A DNA stretch of 61,416 nt, the filler included, from Dugesia japonica (Eukaryota): assembly GCA_001938525.1 (NCBI GenBank). It is 6 parts of 6 records of this genome, joined end to end, with 100 filler letters (N's around TTAATTAATTAA, not from the genome) between each part and the next. Parts side by side here need not be neighbours in the genome. Positions count along the whole stretch, not along the records: positions 11,991 to 21,380 come from MQRL01627410.1; 5 more parts are not named here. One strand, 5' to 3'. Positions 12,195 to 45,970 of the stretch are shown one piece after another; positions within the stretch are counted from its first letter, which is position 1; every line of letters begins with the position of its first letter. The notes beneath the pieces were generated by a model. It did not search any database. It saw nothing but the letters and a program-made list of their open reading frames with translations, and had not been told where the DNA came from. The position numbers and the translations under genes are program-made.

Positions 12195-12558
12195 GGTGGA
12201 TTGGTCAGCAAGACGCCATTATTTTGATTGGTGGATTCCAACACCTAATTACCTCATCTTACCCAACCTCCCCGACCTCCCCTACCCCTCCTCCCAGCCC
12301 TCTAAAACGAACTTGCACATCAACAACCACTTTAAAAATCAAGAACCACTTTAATAATCAAAAATCACTTCAAAAATTGATAATCAATAATCAATCAGAT
12401 CAAAAATCGACAATCAATAATCAATATATGCGCGATAACTCATAAGATCGCAGACCCCACTTTAATTTGTTTTCACGAGGGAGGAGGGGGAGAGGGGCCT
12501 AAGAGATATTTTTGGAATCGACCAATCAAAATGATGGGGTCATGCTGAGCAATCCACC
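12195..12558. repeat. Foldback/MITE-like element with 47-bp inverted arms
   Basis: 12195-12241 matches the reverse complement of 12512-12558 at 42/47; inner C-rich and G-rich tracts are also roughly complementary. Confidence 0.8.
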
Positions 12559-13699
12559 TACTAAATATCTTTACAAAGTACTATCATTGTTATAAACGAA
12601 AGACGTTAAAAAAAATTTTCAAATTAAGAATTTTTATTAAACGTGAAAATTTATACTATTTCACTTTATTCTTCTTCAGATTGTAATCGATAACTATACG
12701 AAGAAAAATTTATCAATAATTAACAATTAATGAACCAAAAACATATTATCTCTTCAAGTTTTCTCATAGCTAATTGTGGATCTGACATTTGCCATTGGTA
12801 AAATTGAACCGATCCGCGTTAAAGTTGTTTTACTAATCATTTTTGAATAATCTTTTTAAGGTAGATTTTGAGCTTTTGCAAACGATACTAGTATTTTTGG
12901 CAAATTTCCCTTTCTTTGTGGATGGAGTATTTGTACATATTTCACTTATTACAGTTTCTTGCGCTTCTGAAATAATTAAATTGTAAACATCTGCTTAAAC
13001 TAGTGTCGTCGGAAACACGTGGATTAGGTTCTAGCTTCACCATATTTATTAAACATTGAATATTATGTTTACAAGAATATTTTTCAGTTGGATAGAATTT
13101 TATTGACGCATACTTCGTGACTATCTTCATATTTTCCATACATATACTTCCATCCATCACCTAGTATCGTAGAAGTTGAAATACTTAATACTTTTGACAT
13201 CGTCAAAAGCTAAATAATGAGAGATTAGAGCAAAATTATAGCAGACTTTGCATATGTATACATGTGTAATACATACACATGTATCATATCAAAATGTATA
13301 CTGGAGTAGACATTGAGGAAACCATCTAAATCTACTTTAATGAATCTATCAGTTATCCATATTGTTTCACATGTTGTCAACAAATTAAACTCAGAAAAAT
13401 TATAAAACAATTTTTTTAATTAATCTCAATTAATAAATCTTGTTTTATTATATTTACACTATTCAATATTCTCATATAAAAATAATAAAACAATAGTAAT
13501 AAAATACATCAGTACATAACTATCAAAAATAAATCGAAGCCATATTAAAGTTAAAACATTTTAATAATCATAACAAATCTAGTTTTTCTTTTGGATGATT
13601 TTCATAATCTATATTGTTTTCTAGTTTCTTATACCAGACTTATGAATTCAATTTTTCATTACGTATTCCAAACTCATCTAACAAGGGGGCAGCGGTAAA

Positions 13700-14300
13700 C
13701 ACCAATGTGATCACAAAAAGATTATTTCCAAAATTATTTTGCCGAAGCGATGATCTAGAGAAGTTTAAAAAACGGTGTGAAATATCATTTAAAGGGAAGA
13801 ATATATCTAATGATATAGAACAGGAGCGCTTAAAAATATGCATGCTTGATGAAGAAATAATGGAGACATATGTAAAAACATTAAAGATAGTTGACGAATT
13901 TCAAGGGTGATTGTGACTAGCTTTTGAGAGCAAGAGAGATGCAATAAAAGATTTTCAGAAACTTGTAAACTATCAAAGTGGCGATGAAGACTTTGAGGTG
14001 TTCTTGAAAAAGTGTAATATTTGGTTGATAAATACTTAGCAAATGAGAACTGACGAAAGAAAAACTCTTGTAAAAATGCTTATAATTTGCGCAGATAGTG
14101 AAAAGAAGAATAAGAGATAATCATGCGGAAATTGGAAAAGAAGATATAAAAAAACACTGTCACTATTTGAAAAAATAGAAAGAGTAATACGTGGGGAATT
14201 ATCGGTGACATGATACGAAACATCGAGAATGTTACGCAAAGAACATAACCAGTGTTGGACATGTCAGAATTATGGTACATAAAAAAAGAGTGTCCCAAAT
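13700..14300 (+). mobile_element. LTR retrotransposon gag remnant
   Basis: Helical gag-like ORF fragments ending in a frameshifted CWTCQNYG-HIKKECP zinc knuckle. Confidence 0.65.
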
Positions 14301-15179
14301 ATTATTGGGCAAATCCTCCGCTCTTTTAAAGAACACTTCAAGGTCTTCACAAACATTTTGATAGTTTACGAGATTCTGAAAATCTTTTATGAACTTTCAC
14401 CATGAACGTCAAAGATGCAGCATTATATACTAAATCACTTGAAAACAATTTAAGAAAATAAAAAAGACATGTAGAGATGCTATTGAGAATGCTAAGATAA
14501 GCTGTGAAGAATGAGGGATTGGCATTAAAAGATGAATCAGTCGAGGGTAAAGAATGCTTGAAAAATTGGCACAAGACTCTTATTGTTCAGCATAGGAAGA
14601 GATTGTGTGTGTCATGAAATCTGTTTTAGATTTTTTCCAACAAGAAACAACAAGCCTATTTACTAGGTTGAACCATCTGAATTCAAATTTGGATTTATGC
14701 TTGACACAAAAACTCTTCTAATAAGTGGAAATTTAGATGTCCACCATGTACTCTGTTAAAAGTGCTTAAATTTTTTAAGCTTTTATGCCACTAATCTTAA
14801 CGAGGAAGAACAATGCCTCAGATTTGCGATTCTAAAATACTGCTGGATGCTAAAAGAGGTATTTTATCATTGTCTCCTTTGACGTTTCGTACATTTATTG
14901 GGTCGACGATTTTTCCAATTTACGCATTGCCTTAAAATCATCCTAGCAATTTATGTGCCACAAGCAAGCTGCAAAACATCCTCAGGAAGTTGAAACTGAT
15001 TCTGCCATACATCGTGCGTCGATGAGACAATTGTGTTTGGGCAATCTATTACTGCTTATTGTAGAGAGAGAAACAATTAACTTTTATGATGTTATTGAAA
15101 TCTTTAGTAAAACGCTACTTTTAATGTATAGTGTGTTCCAAAGAAAACTTCGTTTTTTTAAGTTTAATAGTTTAATTTG

Positions 15180-15960
15180 ATGATCTTTACAGAACATTTG
15201 CGTTACGACAGCCGTATGAGGACAAGCATTAAATTGCATTAGCTCCAGACATCACGCTTCTCTCATATCTAAGAATGATTTCAGAAAATCGATATTTCGT
15301 TCAAAATTAATGGTTTGTTTACGTTCTAAGACTGTATATCTGAAATCTTCATGAAAATTACAGGCCACAAATTTGTGAAACTTCATATATCATATTGTTT
15401 TTCTGGCGATCATTGGTCGATAACCACCTTTTGGCACCCAATATAAATTATTATGGCCAGAAGGAAAAGGCTCAGTATAAACCCACTTTTTGTCTACAAC
15501 CACAGTAAGATTATTCAGATTTCGATAGAAATCTTCGGCCAATTTAAATCTCTGAACCTTATGATCATCTGTTAATTGATGTGTAACCCACCTTGTCTGG
15601 ACACAATTCATCATCAATTTTTCAGAAATAATTCGATATATTGAAGTGGTGCTCAAATCAGTAAGAGCAGATATTTCTCTAATCGAGAAACTTGGATTTT
15701 TATCAAGGAGTTCCTTCACCTTATTTCATATCTTCATTATTTGATTTAGTCAGTGATCTTCCGGAGCCTTTGACTTTACGGACTCTTATAAGACTGTTAT
15801 TTTTAAATTCATCGGCAATTTGTTGGATTTATCACAAGGTTTTTATTTCTCCACAGGCTGTCACCAAAACTTCTTGTATTTCTGTAGCCGTAAAATCATT
15901 TTTTGTCATAACTTCGACAAAAAATCACATTTTCGGTTATAACGTTGTTTATCATATTTT
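15180..15960 (-). mobile_element. mariner-type transposase remnant
   Basis: HTH region (ATEIQEVL; SIREIS...TSIYRII), RWVTHQL (WVPHEL-like), VVVDKKWVY, MQFNACPHTA (HDNARPH-like). Confidence 0.85.
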
Positions 15961-16073
15961 TGAGGTTTACAAGCATGCAACATAACAGTACACACACAAA
16001 ACACAAAAATCCCATGTGTTTAACATTATATTATTTTTATTTGGAAGTGCAGTATATTTGTTTATTTAGACAG

Positions 16074-16680
16074 TGTAAATTAATTTCAGTTATTGATTGA
16101 TCTAAGAATTTTTATTAATGTTATGGAAATTTTTATTATTTATGAATTTATCTGAAAATTTTATTATGGAAAATTTTGTTAATTGTGAATTTAATAATGT
16201 AAGTAAAATTTATTATTTATGAATTTTATTATGGAAAATTTTATTAATTATGAATTTAATTATATTAAGTAAAAATTTTTGAATGAAGTATGGAATGATG
16301 AACACTAGGTCATTGCATGAGGCCTAGTGTGAATTTACTATAAATACTGACATATGTCAGTTTGATTTCAGACACTTTTTATTAAGGAAACCTCTTTTTT
16401 AAGTGGCTTTCCTTCTTTAAATTAAAATTAGCTAATAAGGATTCTTATAGTTGTATTGTTATATACTCTAATATAAATTTTTAAGGTATATTGTTTTCTT
16501 TTATTATAGAAATAACACACTTTATCACAATATTTATAATTTGATAATTTATCATTTATATAATAATGTATCTACATATAAAGGAAAAAATCAACACCAA
16601 TAGTCTCACATACATAATTGTTGTTAATAGTTATGAAATATACGAACCATAAAATCTTTTGTTAAGTTAACTACCAAACA
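16074..16680 (+). repeat. Putative 5' LTR
   Basis: TGT...ACA ends, AT-rich tandem subrepeats, TATAAA at ~16339, immediately followed by a PBS. Left boundary uncertain because no second LTR is in the contig. Confidence 0.6.
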
Positions 16681-16684
16681 AATT

Positions 16685-16703
16685 TGGTTCCGCAAACCGG
16701 GAA
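16685..16703 (+). promoter_or_regulatory. Primer-binding site, tRNA-Glu-like
   Basis: TGGTTCCGCAAACCGGGAA four nt after the LTR end; resembles the complement of a tRNA-Glu 3' end. Confidence 0.7.
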
Positions 16704-17224
16704 TCAAAATAACAAAAATTAGTAAAATCAGTTTAAAATCAAGCGGGTGTTCAGACCTTTATTAAAATATACCGTGTATTGATCAGTTTGATATCAGATA
16801 TTGGAGAAAATCCTACTACGATCTCTTATCAAAGTTAATTAATTTAATTATCTTAAGTTTGGTATTAGATTTGGATTAGATTCCAGCCGCAATCTCTTTC
16901 CAAAGTTCTGATAATATAAAATCAGTTCCCTTAAAATAATAAAGTTAAAAGTGATTATAAAGTTAAAGGTGATTTACCAGTAGGAACGAAACCGACGAAA
17001 TTGTTTAATTAGAGTACTGGTTGAAACGAAACCCAAGAAAATAATTGTTAGTATTCCAGTTGAAAGAAACTGAAGGAATAATCTTTGAAGAGAATATAAT
17101 ATATAAATTGCGAACCAGAGATATTCAAAAAATGGTTGCAGCAAATAATAATAATGAAAATATGCCATTTAAAAATGTACCGATTAATGATTAAGTAGGA
17201 GGTGGATTTGGACACCGGGGTACA

Positions 17225-18762
17225 TTGAATATATTACCAATACAATTTTATGCAGGGAAACTTGAGGAATTCGATGAGTACTTTGAGCATATGCATATCT
17301 GTGCCACAGCTTGTGGATGGACAGAAGCAGAATTGATTAAAATATTGCGACTTTATTTAAAAAAATATTCATTAAAATGTTATAAAAATATGGGTGCCAA
17401 ACTTGAGAAATGGAATGATTAAATAGCAAAATTAAGAAAAAAGATAATAGTTCAAAGTAAACTAGAGAGAATTTGTATACAAAAGTTTAGAGACAGAACA
17501 CAATCAGCAAATGAAACAGTGGGCGAATATATATATGAACTAACAAGGTTAGCAGAACAAGCTTTTGGAAAAGGAGATAATACTGGTCATATTATAGAAT
17601 TTCAATTTCTAAATGGAATACATAAACATATTTGAGATGCTCTAATTGCAGCAGAGTATAAAAATCTAGAGGAATTGACAGCAAAAGCAAGACGAATTGA
17701 AGCAAATACAAAACATAAAGAGAAAACCAGACAGATATATACAATTGAAGCAAGTAATGAGGAATCATTGTGGAATGAAATGAGGAAAGCGTATCAAAAT
17801 CGTCAAGATAGTAGAAAAGATCAAAATGTAAAACTCAAAACAGATTATTACCAAAAAATGATAGTAGTTATAACAGAAATTCTAGTCCTAAGAGAAATTA
17901 CAATAACTATAATAGAAATTCAAGTCCTGGAACGAGCTATAACAATTATAATGGAAATTCATGCTCTGGAAGGAGCTATAGCAATAATAACTGAAATTCA
18001 AGTCCTGGGAAAAATTATAATAATTATAATAGGAACTCTAGCCTAGGTAGAAATTATGAAAGAAACGCAAGTCCAACGAGAGGATATAATCGAGATAACC
18101 GAGGTTATAGTCCAAAGAGATACGATAATAGACGGAGTCCAAGTACGTACTTTTCGAATGAAAGAAGAGATAAATTGAATAACAGAGGACAAATAAAGTG
18201 TTATAATTGTAATAAATACGGACATATAGCGAGAGTATGTAGCAATAAACCAAATGATTCTAGAAGTATTCTAAAAAAATATGTATCATACAGTTCAGAT
18301 ACAAGAGAAGCTAATGCTATTGAAGTAATTGACAATGAAGCTTATGAAAATATGAGAACTGAGTTAGAAGATATGAAAATACATTATCAGCGTATGATGG
18401 AAAGACAGCAAGAAAGAGAAGAATATGAAATAAATATGTGTGAACCAACAGAAGTAGATTTTGATGCGATTGATGAAAAAAAGCAAGAAATATTGATAAA
18501 GAATGTCCGATTAGAGATAAAAAAAGAAAGAATTAATGAACGCAAATTGTTACAATATTTAAAGGATATAAATAAGTATCCTATCAACTTTCAGAAAACT
18601 AAACCAATAATAATCACTTTAGCAAAAAACCGAAGTAAAATAGAAATATCAGAGAATTTGGAAGCAATAGATAAGATATTTCAAAAATATAGTGAGCATG
18701 TGAAAGGAAATGAAGTGTTGCAAGAATCGTTAAATATCAAAGTAGTAGCAGGAAAAAACTAA
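17225..18762 (+). pseudogene. Ty3/Gypsy-type gag with 13-aa repeats and CCHC knuckle
   Basis: CATACGWTEAE..., RTQSANETVGEYIYELTRLAEQAF, QFLNGI, ARRIE, CYNCNKYGHIARVC; several stops. Confidence 0.88.
17870..18065 (+). repeat. 39-bp coding tandem repeat, about 5 copies
   Basis: Units start at 17870, 17909, 17948 etc.; encode YNRNSSPGxxYNN-like peptides in the zinc-knuckle frame. Confidence 0.9.
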
Positions 18763-19771
18763 TGCTCTGTAACAGCATTAGAATTGACAATGCACGCGTG
18801 TACAAAAACGAATAAATTGTATAAAATAGTAAAAATGAATTGGCCAGTGGTATTACAAAATGAAGATTTAATGCAGCTATCGTTTTATAATACAGAGTTA
18901 AATGAGAATTGATGGAATACGGAATTATTCCAGGTAATGTGAATATCATAAAAGTAACAATAATGAATCATACACCACAAGTATTAACAAATGATCAACA
19001 AAAATCTATGGAAGAAAATTTGAATATGATGGCAGAAGCAGATAAAGCTGAAGAGCAAAGAGTAAACCAACAAGAAAAAGAGATAAGAAAGAGATAAAAC
19101 AGCCACCAATGTCAGCCACAAGGAATGAAAAACCATCTACATCAGATAATGCAAGAAGGGAGATGCCAAGACAGAAAGTATTTAAAGATAAATGTTTCAG
19201 ATTACAAAAGATCAAGAAGTAGACCCAAATTAGAAAATATATTACAAGAAAAATGGCAAGCTGAACATTTGAATAATATATTACAAAGATATGATGAACA
19301 AGCATCAGCAGGATCAGATCAAGGACTTATAAGAAGTCTAATTAAATTGGTACATGCTGATTTATATGATTGTATAATNACTCAGAATAGAGCATTAATG
19401 ATATATGAGGACATGAAAATCATATTAAAGGAAGTAAGCAAATTAATAATAGCAGATCCAGAAATTGATGATTATAAAGTAATGAAAACAATGATGAAGG
19501 AAGTAATAAACAAAAATAAAGTAGTTACAGCTATTCTATATTTAATACTCAAGAATCGAGAACAATTAGTTGAGAGACCTGATAAAAACATTGTGGTTGT
19601 AGAGCGAATANNNNNNNNNNNNNNNNNNNNNNNNNNNNNNNNNNNNNNNNNNNNNNNNNNGAAACATTATATCCAACAGTTAATCGTAAGCAAAAAATTC
19701 AGGAAACAGAACAGGAAGATGAAATAAAGAAACTTATTAATAAAGAGACAAAGAAATCAAATCGATCACTA

Positions 19772-21380
19772 ATGGGTACAATAATAACAAATTATAATAA
19801 TTTTATTGGAATTAGCAAGAGGAGCAAATGCAATAGTAGCATATGATTGTAATACTCCAAAATGAGGGGAAAAGTATTCATTATTAGATGTGGAAAACTG
19901 CCCAGAGGCGCACCCTACAAAAATAAAAATATAAAATCCAATCATCATGCATTTATATCAAGAATCTGACTTTGTACATGCAGAAGCGTATGAATGTAGT
20001 ATAAAATTTGAGGAAGAAAATTCATATTATGATGTTACGCAAAGTATACCACTAATACCAGCTTAGTCTCCAGACATAATATTAATAGATGCGAGCAATT
20101 GTGAGCAAGCGTTTAAAACAAAAACTCTGAAATTACATGGTAATGAATTACAGGTAAGAGTTGGTGCGAAAGTAAAGCAGAAAGTGGACATTGTACGATG
20201 GTCAACCGCGAATGGATATTGTGGAGGAGGAAATTATAGGATATGGATACAAGTGAAATCTGACATCTTAGTTCGAAGGCAATATCATGTTGAATTAAAG
20301 AAAATAAAAGTAATATTTGATGCTGCTACGTGAAAAATGATGACACATCCATTTTGTAGCTTAAAAGATACAAGTTGTGATACTGGAGAATCGATGGTGT
20401 ATAAAGTAAATCCATTTGAATGTACACTTACGAAATTACGGACAGTAGCAATAAAAGAAGTTAGTGGAACTTTACCAACAGATAAACCACCTAACATACG
20501 AGATGCAAAGAGGAAAGCAACAGTGATTGGTGAAAAGGCAACACCAACAATATATTTCAAATTCAACACAAGAAGCACTAAGACTTATTGAAAAAGGAGT
20601 AGATATCAAGTGTGTAGTGGAAGTGACAGTGACAAATTATAATTGGTTATATCTATCAAAAAAGGAAATAAAAGATGCCAGGTCAGAGGTTGATAAACTG
20701 GATGTAAAAATAGCAACATATTTTAATAACAAAATCGATTTTATCTATCATAAAATTTTAAGACAAGTAGATAGAATATATCAAGAAACAATTATGAAAA
20801 ATGGCAAGAATCAGCGAGAATTGTTAAGGGCAAAAATGGCAATGGTAGTCACAAATCCGGATTTGGTAGCACCGCTCCTGTTCGAAGAAAGAGGAACATT
20901 TGGAAGAATAGTGGGAGAAACTTTAGTGAGTTTTAAATGCAAACCAGTAGCAGTTACGCTTACAGATCATGAGAAATGTACTAATGAATTACCAGTGATT
21001 TATAAAGGAGAGAACGTATTTTTGCTTTTAATAACAATAATTCTAACAGATAAACTTTATCAACCAAAAGTGATTGAAAAATGTAGTAATATTCTTTATC
21101 CTATGTACAAACTAAAGGAGTAGGTATGGATAACAGTGTCAGACAAAAAGACAGCACCAACTCCACTGATGATGGAAATGATAGAGCTCGGTAGAACAAC
21201 AGAATTGGAAAGGATTGATAATATGGAAAAGCGTGGTATTTATACAATAAATGATATTAAAAAAAGCAAGGAAACACATGCTTATTTCAATACAAAGAGA
21301 AAAAACAATATCGATAATGGTTGATAAATTAGATAGAGGGAGTAATGGAGACGATGTAAATTTTGAATCACTGTTACACG
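19772..21380 (+). pseudogene. env: Envelope glycoprotein, chuvirus-like, truncated by contig end
   Basis: Hydrophobic signal then AIVAYDC...YSLLDVENC, YECSIK, CKPVAVTL...CTNELPVIYKG..FL, CSNILYPMYKL..W, GIYT; this Cys/motif spacing matches chuvirus-type glycoproteins. Confidence 0.8.
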
Positions 21381-21480
21381 NNNNNNNNNNNNNNNNNNNN
21401 NNNNNNNNNNNNNNNNNNNNNNNNTTAATTAATTAANNNNNNNNNNNNNNNNNNNNNNNNNNNNNNNNNNNNNNNNNNNN
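21381..21480. other. Artificial contig-joining linker
   Basis: N-TTAATTAATTAA-N. Confidence 0.95.
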
Positions 21481-40949: not shown

Positions 40950-41900
40950 ATAAAATATATTTATTATGGCAAAAATGACACTAACAAATATACATAGGTT
41001 TTGAGGAATCGGTATATTTTATTATACACACTCATACATTCAATCATGTGTTCACCTATTATTAAATACATATTACTCTTTCAAAAATACAAAGTTCAAT
41101 ATAGAATTATTATAAAATTCTTAGTCATCTCACATTCCCCCTTTTTAGAGTGTTTTAACCATTCAATATTTTTTCAATATTATTTTTTACAATATTAATG
41201 GGTTACAGCATTAATGGGTTTTAAATTAAAACTACTATCATGTATTTTGTCTATAATTATTGCTGGTTCTTCATATCTGTTTTCATTTTTATGAAAACCT
41301 TTTTTAATTAAAACTACGTCATCAATATTAAATTTTCTGATTTTATTTTTCTTTTCTAAATATTTTGAATTCTCAGTCATTTAAACTGCTTATAATTCCT
41401 TTACGCTTTAAATTTCTTTCATTTGAATTTTTTAATCATTTCTAGCAATTCATTCTTTGTATAAATTTTTCCCAAAAACTATTTCAGCAGGAGATACATT
41501 TGTCGCTCTCTGAATTGTGTATTTTCCTGTACTTCCTTATCCTATAAACTAATATGAATTGTATCTCTTATAGTTCGAAATTGTCATTCAATTATTCCAT
41601 TAGTAATGATATTAATACTATAAAACAATAACCTAAATTTAGATAAAAAATCAATTTCTGCAATAACCTTGGGAGAAATGATTTTTGCTACATACAACTT
41701 AATAGATTCTGTTTGATTATTAAGTGTAATTTTTAATATATTACTTCCTATTATTTTCAATTGACATTCATTAGTACAAGTAACATTAATATATTCACTT
41801 TAAATTTTAGTAATATTTAATTTTCAAAATATTACATAATCAATCACATAAGTCTTAACACCAGTATGAAGTAAACAATCGTTATTTATTTTTAATTTTA
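40950..41900 (-). mobile_element. Gypsy remnant: protease piece, integrase C-terminus, PPT and start of 3' LTR
   Basis: RATNVSPAEIVFGK, RKFNIDDVVLIK, RYEEPAII; AAAAAGGGGGAA followed by TGTGAG at ~41134. Confidence 0.65.
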
Positions 41901-44870: not shown

Positions 44871-45478
44871 TTGTTTTTAAAATAAAAGTCAATAATATAT
44901 TCAAATCATTTACAAATTAAATTAAATTTTTTCATATTTATTGGTGCGTAACTTAATTATGATTGGCATGGTTAAGTAATGTTTTTGAAGTAAAAAATTA
45001 TTTTGGAGAAATTATTTTAATATAGTCTTTTGATTTTATTATAAATTATTTTTGAATTTATAAAACCTATCCATTTTACTAACATTTGGTTAGATAGTCA
45101 TTTCTTTCTATTTTAATCCGCATTCTTCCAATACTGAATAAACTAAATTTATTTAATTTAAAATTTTTTAATGAAATTTGTTTTTAAAAATTTCTATTTA
45201 TTACATTAAATATATTTGTTTAAATATATACTATTTTATAGTGATTTATTTAAATAACTATGAAAACGAAGCGAGCGTTTTTTAAATTAACATTAATTTT
45301 AACTTTTAAAACGTTTTAAAACAATTTTCTCTAACAAACTCACAAAAAGAAAAATTGCTTACGTTATTTTAGAATTAAATGTATAATTGATTTAAAATTT
45401 AATTGATTATTTAATACTTATTGAATATATTCATTAATTTGTAGATTTATTTCAGAAAATAGTAATTTCTAAAATTCA

Positions 45479-45970
45479 ATGGAAATTGTAAATTTAGAAA
45501 AGATTGGAATCAAAATTATTGACAAGAATGCTAGTTTAATTTTGATTTATAAAAATGGGAAAAAACTTAAAAAACATTCTGTTAAATTAAAAGGATTTAA
45601 TGAAAATAGTAATTTAGTTGATTACCTGGATCAGTTGAAAGTTGAAAATGATCATAAAGTTTATTTTGAAAACTCATTAGATTCACAAATCTTACGTTTG
45701 TTAAGTATCGTACGAGACAGATTTAAAGGACATTCATTGCAAGAAAGTATAGAGAAAAACAAAAATATTGATACGATTAATTCCGAAGAAGATTTGAATG
45801 TTGTTGATGAAGAAATTTTAGTACGTAAAAAAGCAGTTATGGAAGAAACGTTTATTTCAAACCAGAAAAAGCCTTCAGATCCTGATTTTCAATATGATAT
45901 TGTTAAAGAATTTGATAGCGTTATTGAATCCAATAACTGGGACTCGGACGATAATGATTCGGGATTTTAA
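45479..45970 (+). CDS. CEP19: Centrosomal protein of 19 kDa
   Basis: GIK...LILIY, EEDLN.VD...RKKAVMEETF..NQKKPSDPDFQYDI..EF...WD. Confidence 0.88.
   Translation: MEIVNLEKIGIKIIDKNASLILIYKNGKKLKKHSVKLKGFNENSNLVDYLDQLKVENDHKVYFENSLDSQILRLLSIVRDRFKGHSLQESIEKNKNIDTINSEEDLNVVDEEILVRKKAVMEETFISNQKKPSDPDFQYDIVKEFDSVIESNNWDSDDNDSGF

What the first reader, a model, noticed from the sequence alone, without database searches (positions are those of the whole stretch)
16074..21380. LTR element with Gypsy-type gag and a chuvirus-like envelope but no pol
Seen in one contig and on one strand: LTR, PBS, gag with CCHC knuckle, ~1.4 kb with no recognisable protease, RT, RNase H or integrase motifs, then a glycoprotein with chuvirus-type motifs. 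Known: chuvirus-like glycoproteins have been reported in some LTR elements, notably arthropod BEL/Pao. Inference: a capture of a negative-strand RNA virus fusogen by a Gypsy-type lineage in a different host group, either as an internally deleted copy or as a non-autonomous gag-env family relying on a helper for Pol. This is the strongest candidate for an undescribed system in the window.
Basis: partly seen in the sequence, partly recalled or inferred. Interest (0 to 1): 0.82.

Follow-up and report, generated by a model that had tools for sequence, protein, structure and literature searches.

The report
Truncated gag-env-pol retroelement, not pol-less
This is the broken front half of a much-repeated retrovirus-like mobile element whose assembled sequence stops inside the envelope gene, so the "missing" polymerase likely lies just beyond the end, in the gag-env-pol order already described for such elements in flatworms and nematodes.

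Summary
The parts are real: a putative 5' LTR, a primer-binding site, a Ty3/gypsy-type gag with a CCHC knuckle, and a Monjiviricetes-type (gB-like, class III) env, with no pol domain between them. The reading "pol-less" does not hold. The contig ends at 21380 inside env, before its membrane anchor. Of 23 env relatives scanned, 11 carry protease directly behind env (5 with RT-RNase H, 4 with integrase) and none has RT in front of it. The 50-N gap fits the relatives' spacing and leaves no room for pol. The 1.4-kb "empty" stretch is coding: it is colinear with relatives and holds a degenerate domain that is weakly but repeatedly Bcl-2-like in those relatives, as in planarian Burro elements. Public DNA runs show a high-copy family across the whole internal region. 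Gag-env-pol gypsy elements with gB-type env are published for flatworms, nematodes and bryozoans, and this env is close by eye to Schmidtea errantivirus 3. Verdict: a decayed new member of a known kind. The remaining point of interest is the Bcl-2-like cargo in a compact element.

The parts
16074..16680 (+). Putative 5' LTR (TG...CA, 607 bp, very AT-rich); boundaries inferred
   Evidence: Terminal dinucleotides and adjacent PBS; no second copy in the window; depth in public runs is low at 16065-16277 and rises towards its 3' end, so the 5' boundary is not independently confirmed
16685..16705 (+). Primer-binding site, likely tRNA-Glu type
   Evidence: Starts TGG 4 nt after the CA; its complement shares the last 9 nt with the tRNA end listed as Glu_UUC in the eLife supplement; not matched to a host tRNA (none in the window)
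17132..17850 (+). gag capsid region, Ty3/gypsy type, 3 premature stops
   Evidence: Retrotrans_gag PF03732; BLASTP hits to the gag of P0007, P0021 and P0026, E 1e-13 to 3e-6; stops
18193..18243 (+). CCHC zinc knuckle after an Asn/Arg/Ser-rich repeat region, in a different frame from the capsid part
   Evidence: zf-CCHC PF00098 E 4.2e-5
18448..18846 (+). First part of the gag-env spacer: coding, homologous to the spacer of the gag-env-protease relative P0012; domain identity unknown
   Evidence: Local alignment score 100 against a shuffle maximum of 52, 0 of 300 shuffles reach it; a ubiquitin-like reading was not supported
19311..19586 (+). Degenerate Bcl-2-like domain (N-terminal and BH1-like part); the BH2-like part would fall in the N gap
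   Evidence: Profile of 5 relatives' pre-env domain hits only here in six frames of the window, E 8e-9; 0 of 999 scored shuffles reach the score. The Bcl-2 label comes from the relatives: Pfam E 7.7e-5 and 9.6e-4, below the cut-off, PDB Bcl-xL E 0.004. The window's own stretch has no Pfam hit
19611..19660 (.). 50-N assembly gap inside the spacer
   Evidence: BH1-like motif to env start is 109 codons here against 98-128 residues in 5 relatives, so the gap hides little
19764..21380 (+). env: Monjiviricetes/gB-type class III glycoprotein, with several stops and frame changes, cut off by the contig end before the membrane anchor
   Evidence: PF24664; 45% identical to P0006 over both halves, whose model (pLDDT 88.6) matches herpesvirus gB, E 3.5e-14; profile positions 10-524 strongly and 518-557 weakly, of 675
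21381..21480 (.). Contig-joining linker: the end of the element's contig; what follows is another contig
   Evidence: Same linker at 11891, 21381, 31766, 44086 and 52875

Best explanation
This is a decayed, assembly-truncated copy of a high-copy LTR retroelement with a Ty3/gypsy-type gag and a gB-type env, whose pol likely follows env (gag-env-pol order) beyond the contig end. Shown: gag, spacer and env in this order, no pol between them, many stops, contig end inside env, and a high-copy family. Inferred from relatives: intact members are transcribed from the 5' LTR and make one long polyprotein (Gag, spacer with a Bcl-2-like domain, signal peptide and Env with its membrane anchor, then protease, RT, RNase H and integrase). 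They would prime reverse transcription on a tRNA-Glu and integrate by their own integrase, so no helper is needed. Env would give particles a class III fusogen for cell-to-cell passage, and the Bcl-2-like domain would dampen death of the host cell; neither function was tested. The host is probably a planarian flatworm (inferred from the closest described env and the Burro-like cargo, about 80%). This copy is dead.
For: Contig ends inside env. Of 23 env relatives scanned with Pfam (picked by me, mostly for length, from the 2 hits and the 150), 11 have protease right behind env, 5 of them RT-RNase H and 4 integrase, in gypsy order; none has RT before env. In the 10 of these 11 where a D[TS]G protease motif was found, it lies 144-403 residues past the point where this contig stops. 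P0021 is colinear with the window over gag, knuckle, spacer and env. The env's C-terminal half falls in a 21-row clade (SH-aLRT 98) that holds the env-protease and env-pol polyproteins and excludes the two named viral glycoproteins and the BEL/Pao env (quick tree, 64 rows). Summed depth is 3,464-75,261 in every bin from 16491 to 21380 in 3 of 3 contig runs, against 31-51 at 16065-16277, so the spacer belongs to the family layout. Published gag-env-pol elements with gB-type env exist in Platyhelminthes; Smed_errantivirus_3 matches this env at 15 of 20 and 27 of 41 residues in two blocks counted by eye.
Against: Pol was never seen on a contig of this very family: the nearest relatives P0006 and P0013 are also short fragments, no genome is held, and scans for related loci found none. 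12 of the 23 scanned relatives show no protease after env (fragments, proteins that stop after env, or rows outside the clade). In the tree of the first env half, P0022 and P0026 fall on the viral side of the midpoint root, so the retroelement envs are not one clade there. The Bcl-2 label is weak: below the Pfam cut-off, Foldseek E 0.55 or worse on a pLDDT-55 model. The two by-eye blocks were picked for good alignment and overstate overall identity.
Confidence: 0.9

Rival explanations
1. A non-autonomous gag-env family that lost pol (3' of env) and is mobilised in trans by an autonomous partner.
For: No pol within the contig; high family depth over gag, spacer and env; the 3' end is unseen, so it cannot be excluded for this copy.
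Against: Absence of pol in front of env is the normal layout in 11 of 23 scanned relatives and in published flatworm elements; nothing in the data points to an early 3' LTR.
Confidence: 0.05
2. A gag-pol-env element whose pol was deleted internally or is hidden in the 50-N gap.
For: An N gap lies between gag and env.
Against: The sequence on both sides of the gap is colinear with single open frames of P0009, P0021 and P0027; spacing is 109 codons against 98-128; no protease before the gap and no integrase tail after it; depth does not break at the spacer.
Confidence: 0.03
3. A BEL/Pao (Anakin-like) element, or a chuvirus glycoprotein fossil inserted by chance behind an unrelated gag.
For: The env belongs to the same Pfam family as chuvirus glycoproteins, and named viral glycoproteins are among the hits at 25% identity to P0006.
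Against: gag hits Retrotrans_gag and no BEL/Pao family; the env is 32-45% identical to retroelement envs (top hits) and groups with them, away from the DUF5641-bearing BEL/Pao env P0064; gag, spacer and env are colinear with one relative, P0021.
Confidence: 0.02

Closest known systems
GAG-ENV-POL 'errantiviruses' with HSV/gB-type env of Platyhelminthes, Nematoda and Bryozoa (Chary and Hayashi, eLife, PMC13524379), nearest by eye Smed_errantivirus_3
   Same: Gypsy-type gag, gB-type env placed before pol, multicopy; shared env blocks with Smed_errantivirus_3 (15 of 20 and 27 of 41 residues by eye)
   Different: This copy is broken and truncated; pol is not seen. The paper lists no PBS for its six Schmidtea elements, while this copy shows a tRNA-Glu-like one. 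The passages shown for 'bcl' in its main text were all 'subclade' (12 of 14 places shown), so a Bcl-2-like cargo does not appear to be described there.
Burro / GYPSM1 giant gypsy elements of planarians (as described in PMC6431247)
   Same: Retrotrans_gag with CCHC, a BCL2-like motif, then env in frame before protease-RT-RNase H-integrase; env with hits to mononegavirus glycoproteins
   Different: Burro has an internal region up to 25 kb with BIR, RING, MATH, ankyrin and SUMO-like domains. Here only about 2.7 kb separate the gag start from env, and Pfam finds none of those domains.
Nematode non-canonical ERVs (Sacco et al. 2022, J Gen Virol)
   Same: Metavirus with env before pol, according to its citation in PMC13524379
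   Different: Paper not held; not compared directly
Anakin, mosquito BEL/Pao elements with a chuvirus glycoprotein (Dezordi et al. 2020, PMC7642597, search listing only)
   Same: Same glycoprotein family in an LTR element
   Different: BEL/Pao lineage; in the one BEL-type hit here (P0064) env follows the integrase tail, and it sits in the other half of the env tree

Membership tests
gag-env-pol Ty3/gypsy errantivirus (gB-type) | Ty3/gypsy-type gag with CCHC knuckle | tested here: met
   PF03732 just above its cut-off and PF00098; homologous to the gag of P0026, which carries gypsy-order pol
gag-env-pol Ty3/gypsy errantivirus (gB-type) | gB-like class III env | tested here: met
   PF24664 on the window's own sequence; fold shown on the 45%-identical relative P0006
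gag-env-pol Ty3/gypsy errantivirus (gB-type) | env directly after the gag region, no pol in between | tested here: met
gag-env-pol Ty3/gypsy errantivirus (gB-type) | Ty3/gypsy pol (protease-RT-RNase H-integrase) after env | tested here: inconclusive
   Contig ends inside env; present in relatives, not seen for this family
gag-env-pol Ty3/gypsy errantivirus (gB-type) | Paired LTRs and target-site duplication | not testable with these tools
   3' end absent; no genome held
gag-env-pol Ty3/gypsy errantivirus (gB-type) | tRNA primer-binding site behind the 5' LTR | tested here: inconclusive
   Position and TGG start fit and it resembles a tRNA-Glu end, but no host tRNA was available to match
gag-env-pol Ty3/gypsy errantivirus (gB-type) | Multicopy in the host genome | tested here: met
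   Summed depth in the thousands to tens of thousands in 3 of 3 contig runs, 8,647-10,104 records laid per run; not a copy number
Burro (planarian giant gypsy) | BCL2-like motif just before env | tested here: inconclusive
   Homology to relatives' pre-env domain is strong; the Bcl-2 identity of that domain is weak but repeated; the wide structure search listed no Bcl-2 chain in its top 50
Burro (planarian giant gypsy) | Giant polyprotein with BIR, RING, MATH and ankyrin domains before env | tested here: not met
   About 2.7 kb from gag start to env; no such Pfam hit
BEL/Pao (Anakin) | BEL/Pao gag and pol upstream of env | tested here: not met
   env tree
Non-autonomous LTR derivative | 3' LTR reached without any pol | not testable with these tools
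   Contig ends inside env

The most novel reading that the evidence does not exclude
A compact, high-copy gag-env-pol lineage keeps a Bcl-2-like domain between nucleocapsid and env without the rest of the Burro cargo, so an anti-apoptotic passenger is a widespread module of these enveloped retroelements (seen here and in 5 relatives with a BH2-like motif in front of env, plus the fragment P0006) and not a quirk of the giant Burro elements; it would help the element keep its host stem cells alive.
Probability: 0.45. Interest if true: 0.45.

Novelty: new member of a known kind. Interest (0 to 1): 0.24.

Why it matters
It corrects a reading that will recur in fragmented invertebrate assemblies: gag followed by env with no pol is the expected 5' half of gag-env-pol elements, not a helper-dependent family. 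If the Bcl-2-like domain holds up, compact elements like this would be a simpler way than 30-kb Burro to ask how enveloped retroelements affect host cell death.

Tried and rejected
No host genome was available. The search for related loci found no relatives in viral contigs or metagenome contigs. An exact search for 18 nt of the PBS gave 33 metagenome loci; none lies in a tRNA gene or encodes a relative, so they are chance matches. Homolog searches among longer proteins with the spacer and the knuckle ORF found nothing, which is weak evidence. PDB sequence searches with env half P0002 and with P0027 alone gave no meaningful hit. The Atlas gave only sub-0.9 leads for P0027 1-110; the window's own spacer was not tested there. 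The wide VIA search of the P0027 model gave generic helical bundles, best Z 7.3, which is inconclusive. A ubiquitin-like domain in the window's spacer was considered because P0021 has a weak Pfam ubiquitin hit (E 0.031) and Burro has a SUMO-like domain; P0021's region aligns neither to the window nor to P0012 (261 and 121 of 500 shuffles reach the score), so it is not claimed. Rfam found nothing in the LTR and leader (best E 3.7). No RNA holder was listed; in one RNA run 158 reads lay on 15000-21380, none at 99% identity or more, which says little. Pol fragments at 95-870, 1331-2485 and 26232-27869 lie on other contigs and cannot be linked to this element. The careful tree did not finish; quick trees are cited, using the top-scoring 64 of 125 and 41 of 107 rows. 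dN/dS was not estimated. Sacco 2022 and Grohme 2018 are not held.
Full report
Observation. The window is a chain of contigs: a linker of 44 N, 12 nt and 44 N stands at 11891, 21381, 31766, 44086 and 52875. The finding lies at the right end of the piece 11991-21380 and stops at the linker. On the + strand it shows TG at 16074, CA at 16679-16680 and a TGG-starting stretch at 16685. A gag follows from 17132 (Retrotrans_gag, E 3.9e-5; zf-CCHC at 18193-18243, E 4.2e-5) and an env from about 19764 (Monjiviricetes_fusion PF24664, E 3.7e-14 and 5.4e-33 for its two halves). The copy is decayed, with at least 11 premature stops and at least three frame changes. Profiles of protease, RT, RNase H and integrase built from relatives find nothing in 16074-21380 but do find pol fragments on other contigs of the window, so the absence inside the interval is real.

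Why pol is missing. The env runs to the last base of the contig, reaching about position 557 of a 675-position profile (the last segment only weakly, E 0.017). In 10 of 10 relatives the most hydrophobic segment lies 525-551 residues after the env start, which is beyond that point. The second hit of the first homolog search, P0007, already showed gag, env and protease in one frame. A full search with the nearest relative P0006 gave 876 proteins at E 0.001 or better, 150 listed. I scanned 23 relatives, picked mostly for length. Eleven have protease directly behind env, five of these RT and RNase H, four of these integrase, in Ty3/gypsy order; none has RT in front of env. The other 12 are fragments, end soon after env, or lie outside the clade; one of them, P0064, has a BEL/Pao integrase tail before env. 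In 10 of the 11 a D[TS]G protease motif lies 144-403 residues past the point where this contig ends; P0022 lacks that exact motif. Pol is therefore expected just outside the sequence. This is an inference from relatives: no contig of this family that reaches pol was found.

The gap and the spacer. The 50-N gap does not hide pol. Single open frames of P0009, P0021 and P0027 align across it, and the distance from a BH1-like motif to the env start is 109 codons here against 98-128 in five relatives. The spacer is coding. Its first part matches the spacer of P0012 (score 100, 0 of 300 shuffles), though not those of P0021, P0020 or P0014 (105, 17 and 147 of 300 shuffles reach the score). Its second part, 19311-19586, is the only significant place in the window for a profile of the relatives' pre-env domain (E 8e-9; 0 of 999 shuffles). 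In relatives that domain gives Pfam Bcl-2 hits below the cut-off (P0027 E 7.7e-5, P0008 9.6e-4; P0021 0.055). A profile of six relatives hits Bcl-xL and Bcl-2 chains in all 60 rows shown, best E 0.004, over the BH1-BH2 region. A low-confidence model of P0027 (pLDDT 54.6) has Bcl-2-family chains in 36 of 38 listed Foldseek rows, none significant, while the wide VIA search lists only generic bundles. Four of the top relatives (P0010, P0011, P0012, P0007) show no such motif before env. I call the domain Bcl-2-like with moderate confidence; the window's own stretch has no Pfam hit.

The env. P0006 is 45% identical to both halves of the window's env. In a quick tree of the C-terminal half (64 of 125 rows) the window's env pairs with P0006 inside a 21-row clade (SH-aLRT 98) of retroelement envs, apart from a named chuvirus glycoprotein, a named turtle-virus glycoprotein and the BEL/Pao env. 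In the N-terminal tree (41 of 107 rows) it groups with P0006 and P0013 (100), but two env-pol rows fall on the viral side of the midpoint root. These trees are unrooted in substance and do not show the direction of transfer.

Family size. In three public contig sets the summed depth at 85% likeness is 3,464-75,261 in every bin from 16491 to 21380, against 31-51 at 16065-16277, and most laid records are 90-95% alike. The tool warns that this is no copy number, and some runs may be the window's own source, but it shows a large family covering gag, spacer and env without a break. The LTR's 5' part is much less shared, so its boundary stays inferred.

What is known. Chary and Hayashi (PMC13524379; I read the abstract, sections 14 and 15, the first parts of sections 5, 6 and 9, found passages, and rows of supplementary files 1, 2, 4, 5 and 6; figures and protein sets were not visible) report that errantiviruses of Nematoda, Bryozoa and Platyhelminthes carry only gB-type env in GAG-ENV-POL order, and that this glycoprotein resembles Chuviridae envelope genes. 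They list nine flatworm elements, six from Schmidtea mediterranea with 1-215 copies. The env of Smed_errantivirus_3 matches this one at 15 of 20 and 27 of 41 residues in two blocks that I chose and counted by eye. The review PMC6431247 (found passages only) describes planarian Burro as gag with CCHC, accessory domains, BCL2-like motif, env in frame, then pol. Dezordi et al. 2023 (PMC10084718, passages) found no clear gypsy capture in arthropods, which may explain why the combination looked new. Burro1's anti-apoptotic role is known to me only second-hand (PMC13465017, passages). Two searches for Bcl-2 with gypsy or Burro terms returned only PMC6431247 as relevant; subscription papers are not covered. 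The host assignment to planarians is an inference from these resemblances and the 24% GC background, and was not tested on host genes.

How it likely works. Shown: order of parts, decay, truncation, family abundance. Inferred: an autonomous element that makes a Gag-cargo-Env-Pol polyprotein, primes on a tRNA-Glu, integrates by its own integrase, uses the class III Env to pass between cells, and uses the Bcl-2-like domain to limit host cell death. The last two steps are untested. How a cytosolic Pol is released behind a membrane-anchored Env is open; several relatives carry two or three protease domains there.

Verdict. A new, broken member of a published kind. The pol-less claim comes from the contig end (90%); a non-autonomous family remains possible at about 5%. 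Interest 0.24, carried mostly by the Bcl-2-like cargo in a compact element.

Noticed in passing
window 3200-11860: Polinton/Maverick-like remnant on the previous contig: Endonuclease_7 hit at 4332-5018 (E 1.3e-4) inside DNA-polymerase-B-like text, and a phospholipase A2-like domain (PF08398, E 3.7e-9) at 11086-11856 minus. The polinton label is my recall of this gene set.
   Followed up: partly
window 95-870 (-), 1331-2485 (+), 26232-27869 (+): Three separate gypsy-type pol fragments (RT/RNase H; protease/RT; RT-RNase H-integrase) on other contigs, 24-37% identical to relatives' pol; no link to this element.
   Followed up: partly
window 15393-15725 (-): Transposase-like remnant (looks Tc1/mariner-like by recall; no Pfam hit) just left of the LTR; repeated at summed depth 81-357.
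   Followed up: no
window 34618-35079 (+) and 45473-45967 (+): Host gene exons: Rav1p_C (E 7.8e-19) and CEP19 (E 2e-29).
   Followed up: no
P0014 (HBK71150.1): An env-protease-RT-RNase H-integrase polyprotein is labelled as a Flavobacteriaceae MAG protein, probably animal DNA binned into a bacterial genome.
   Followed up: no
P0009, P0010, P0011, P0012, P0018, P0019: Several relatives carry two or three aspartic-protease domains in tandem between env and RT, possibly tied to processing of the env-pol polyprotein.
   Followed up: no
window 41638-41880 (-): Weak retroviral-protease-like match (E 0.0013) among host exons; not examined.
   Followed up: no
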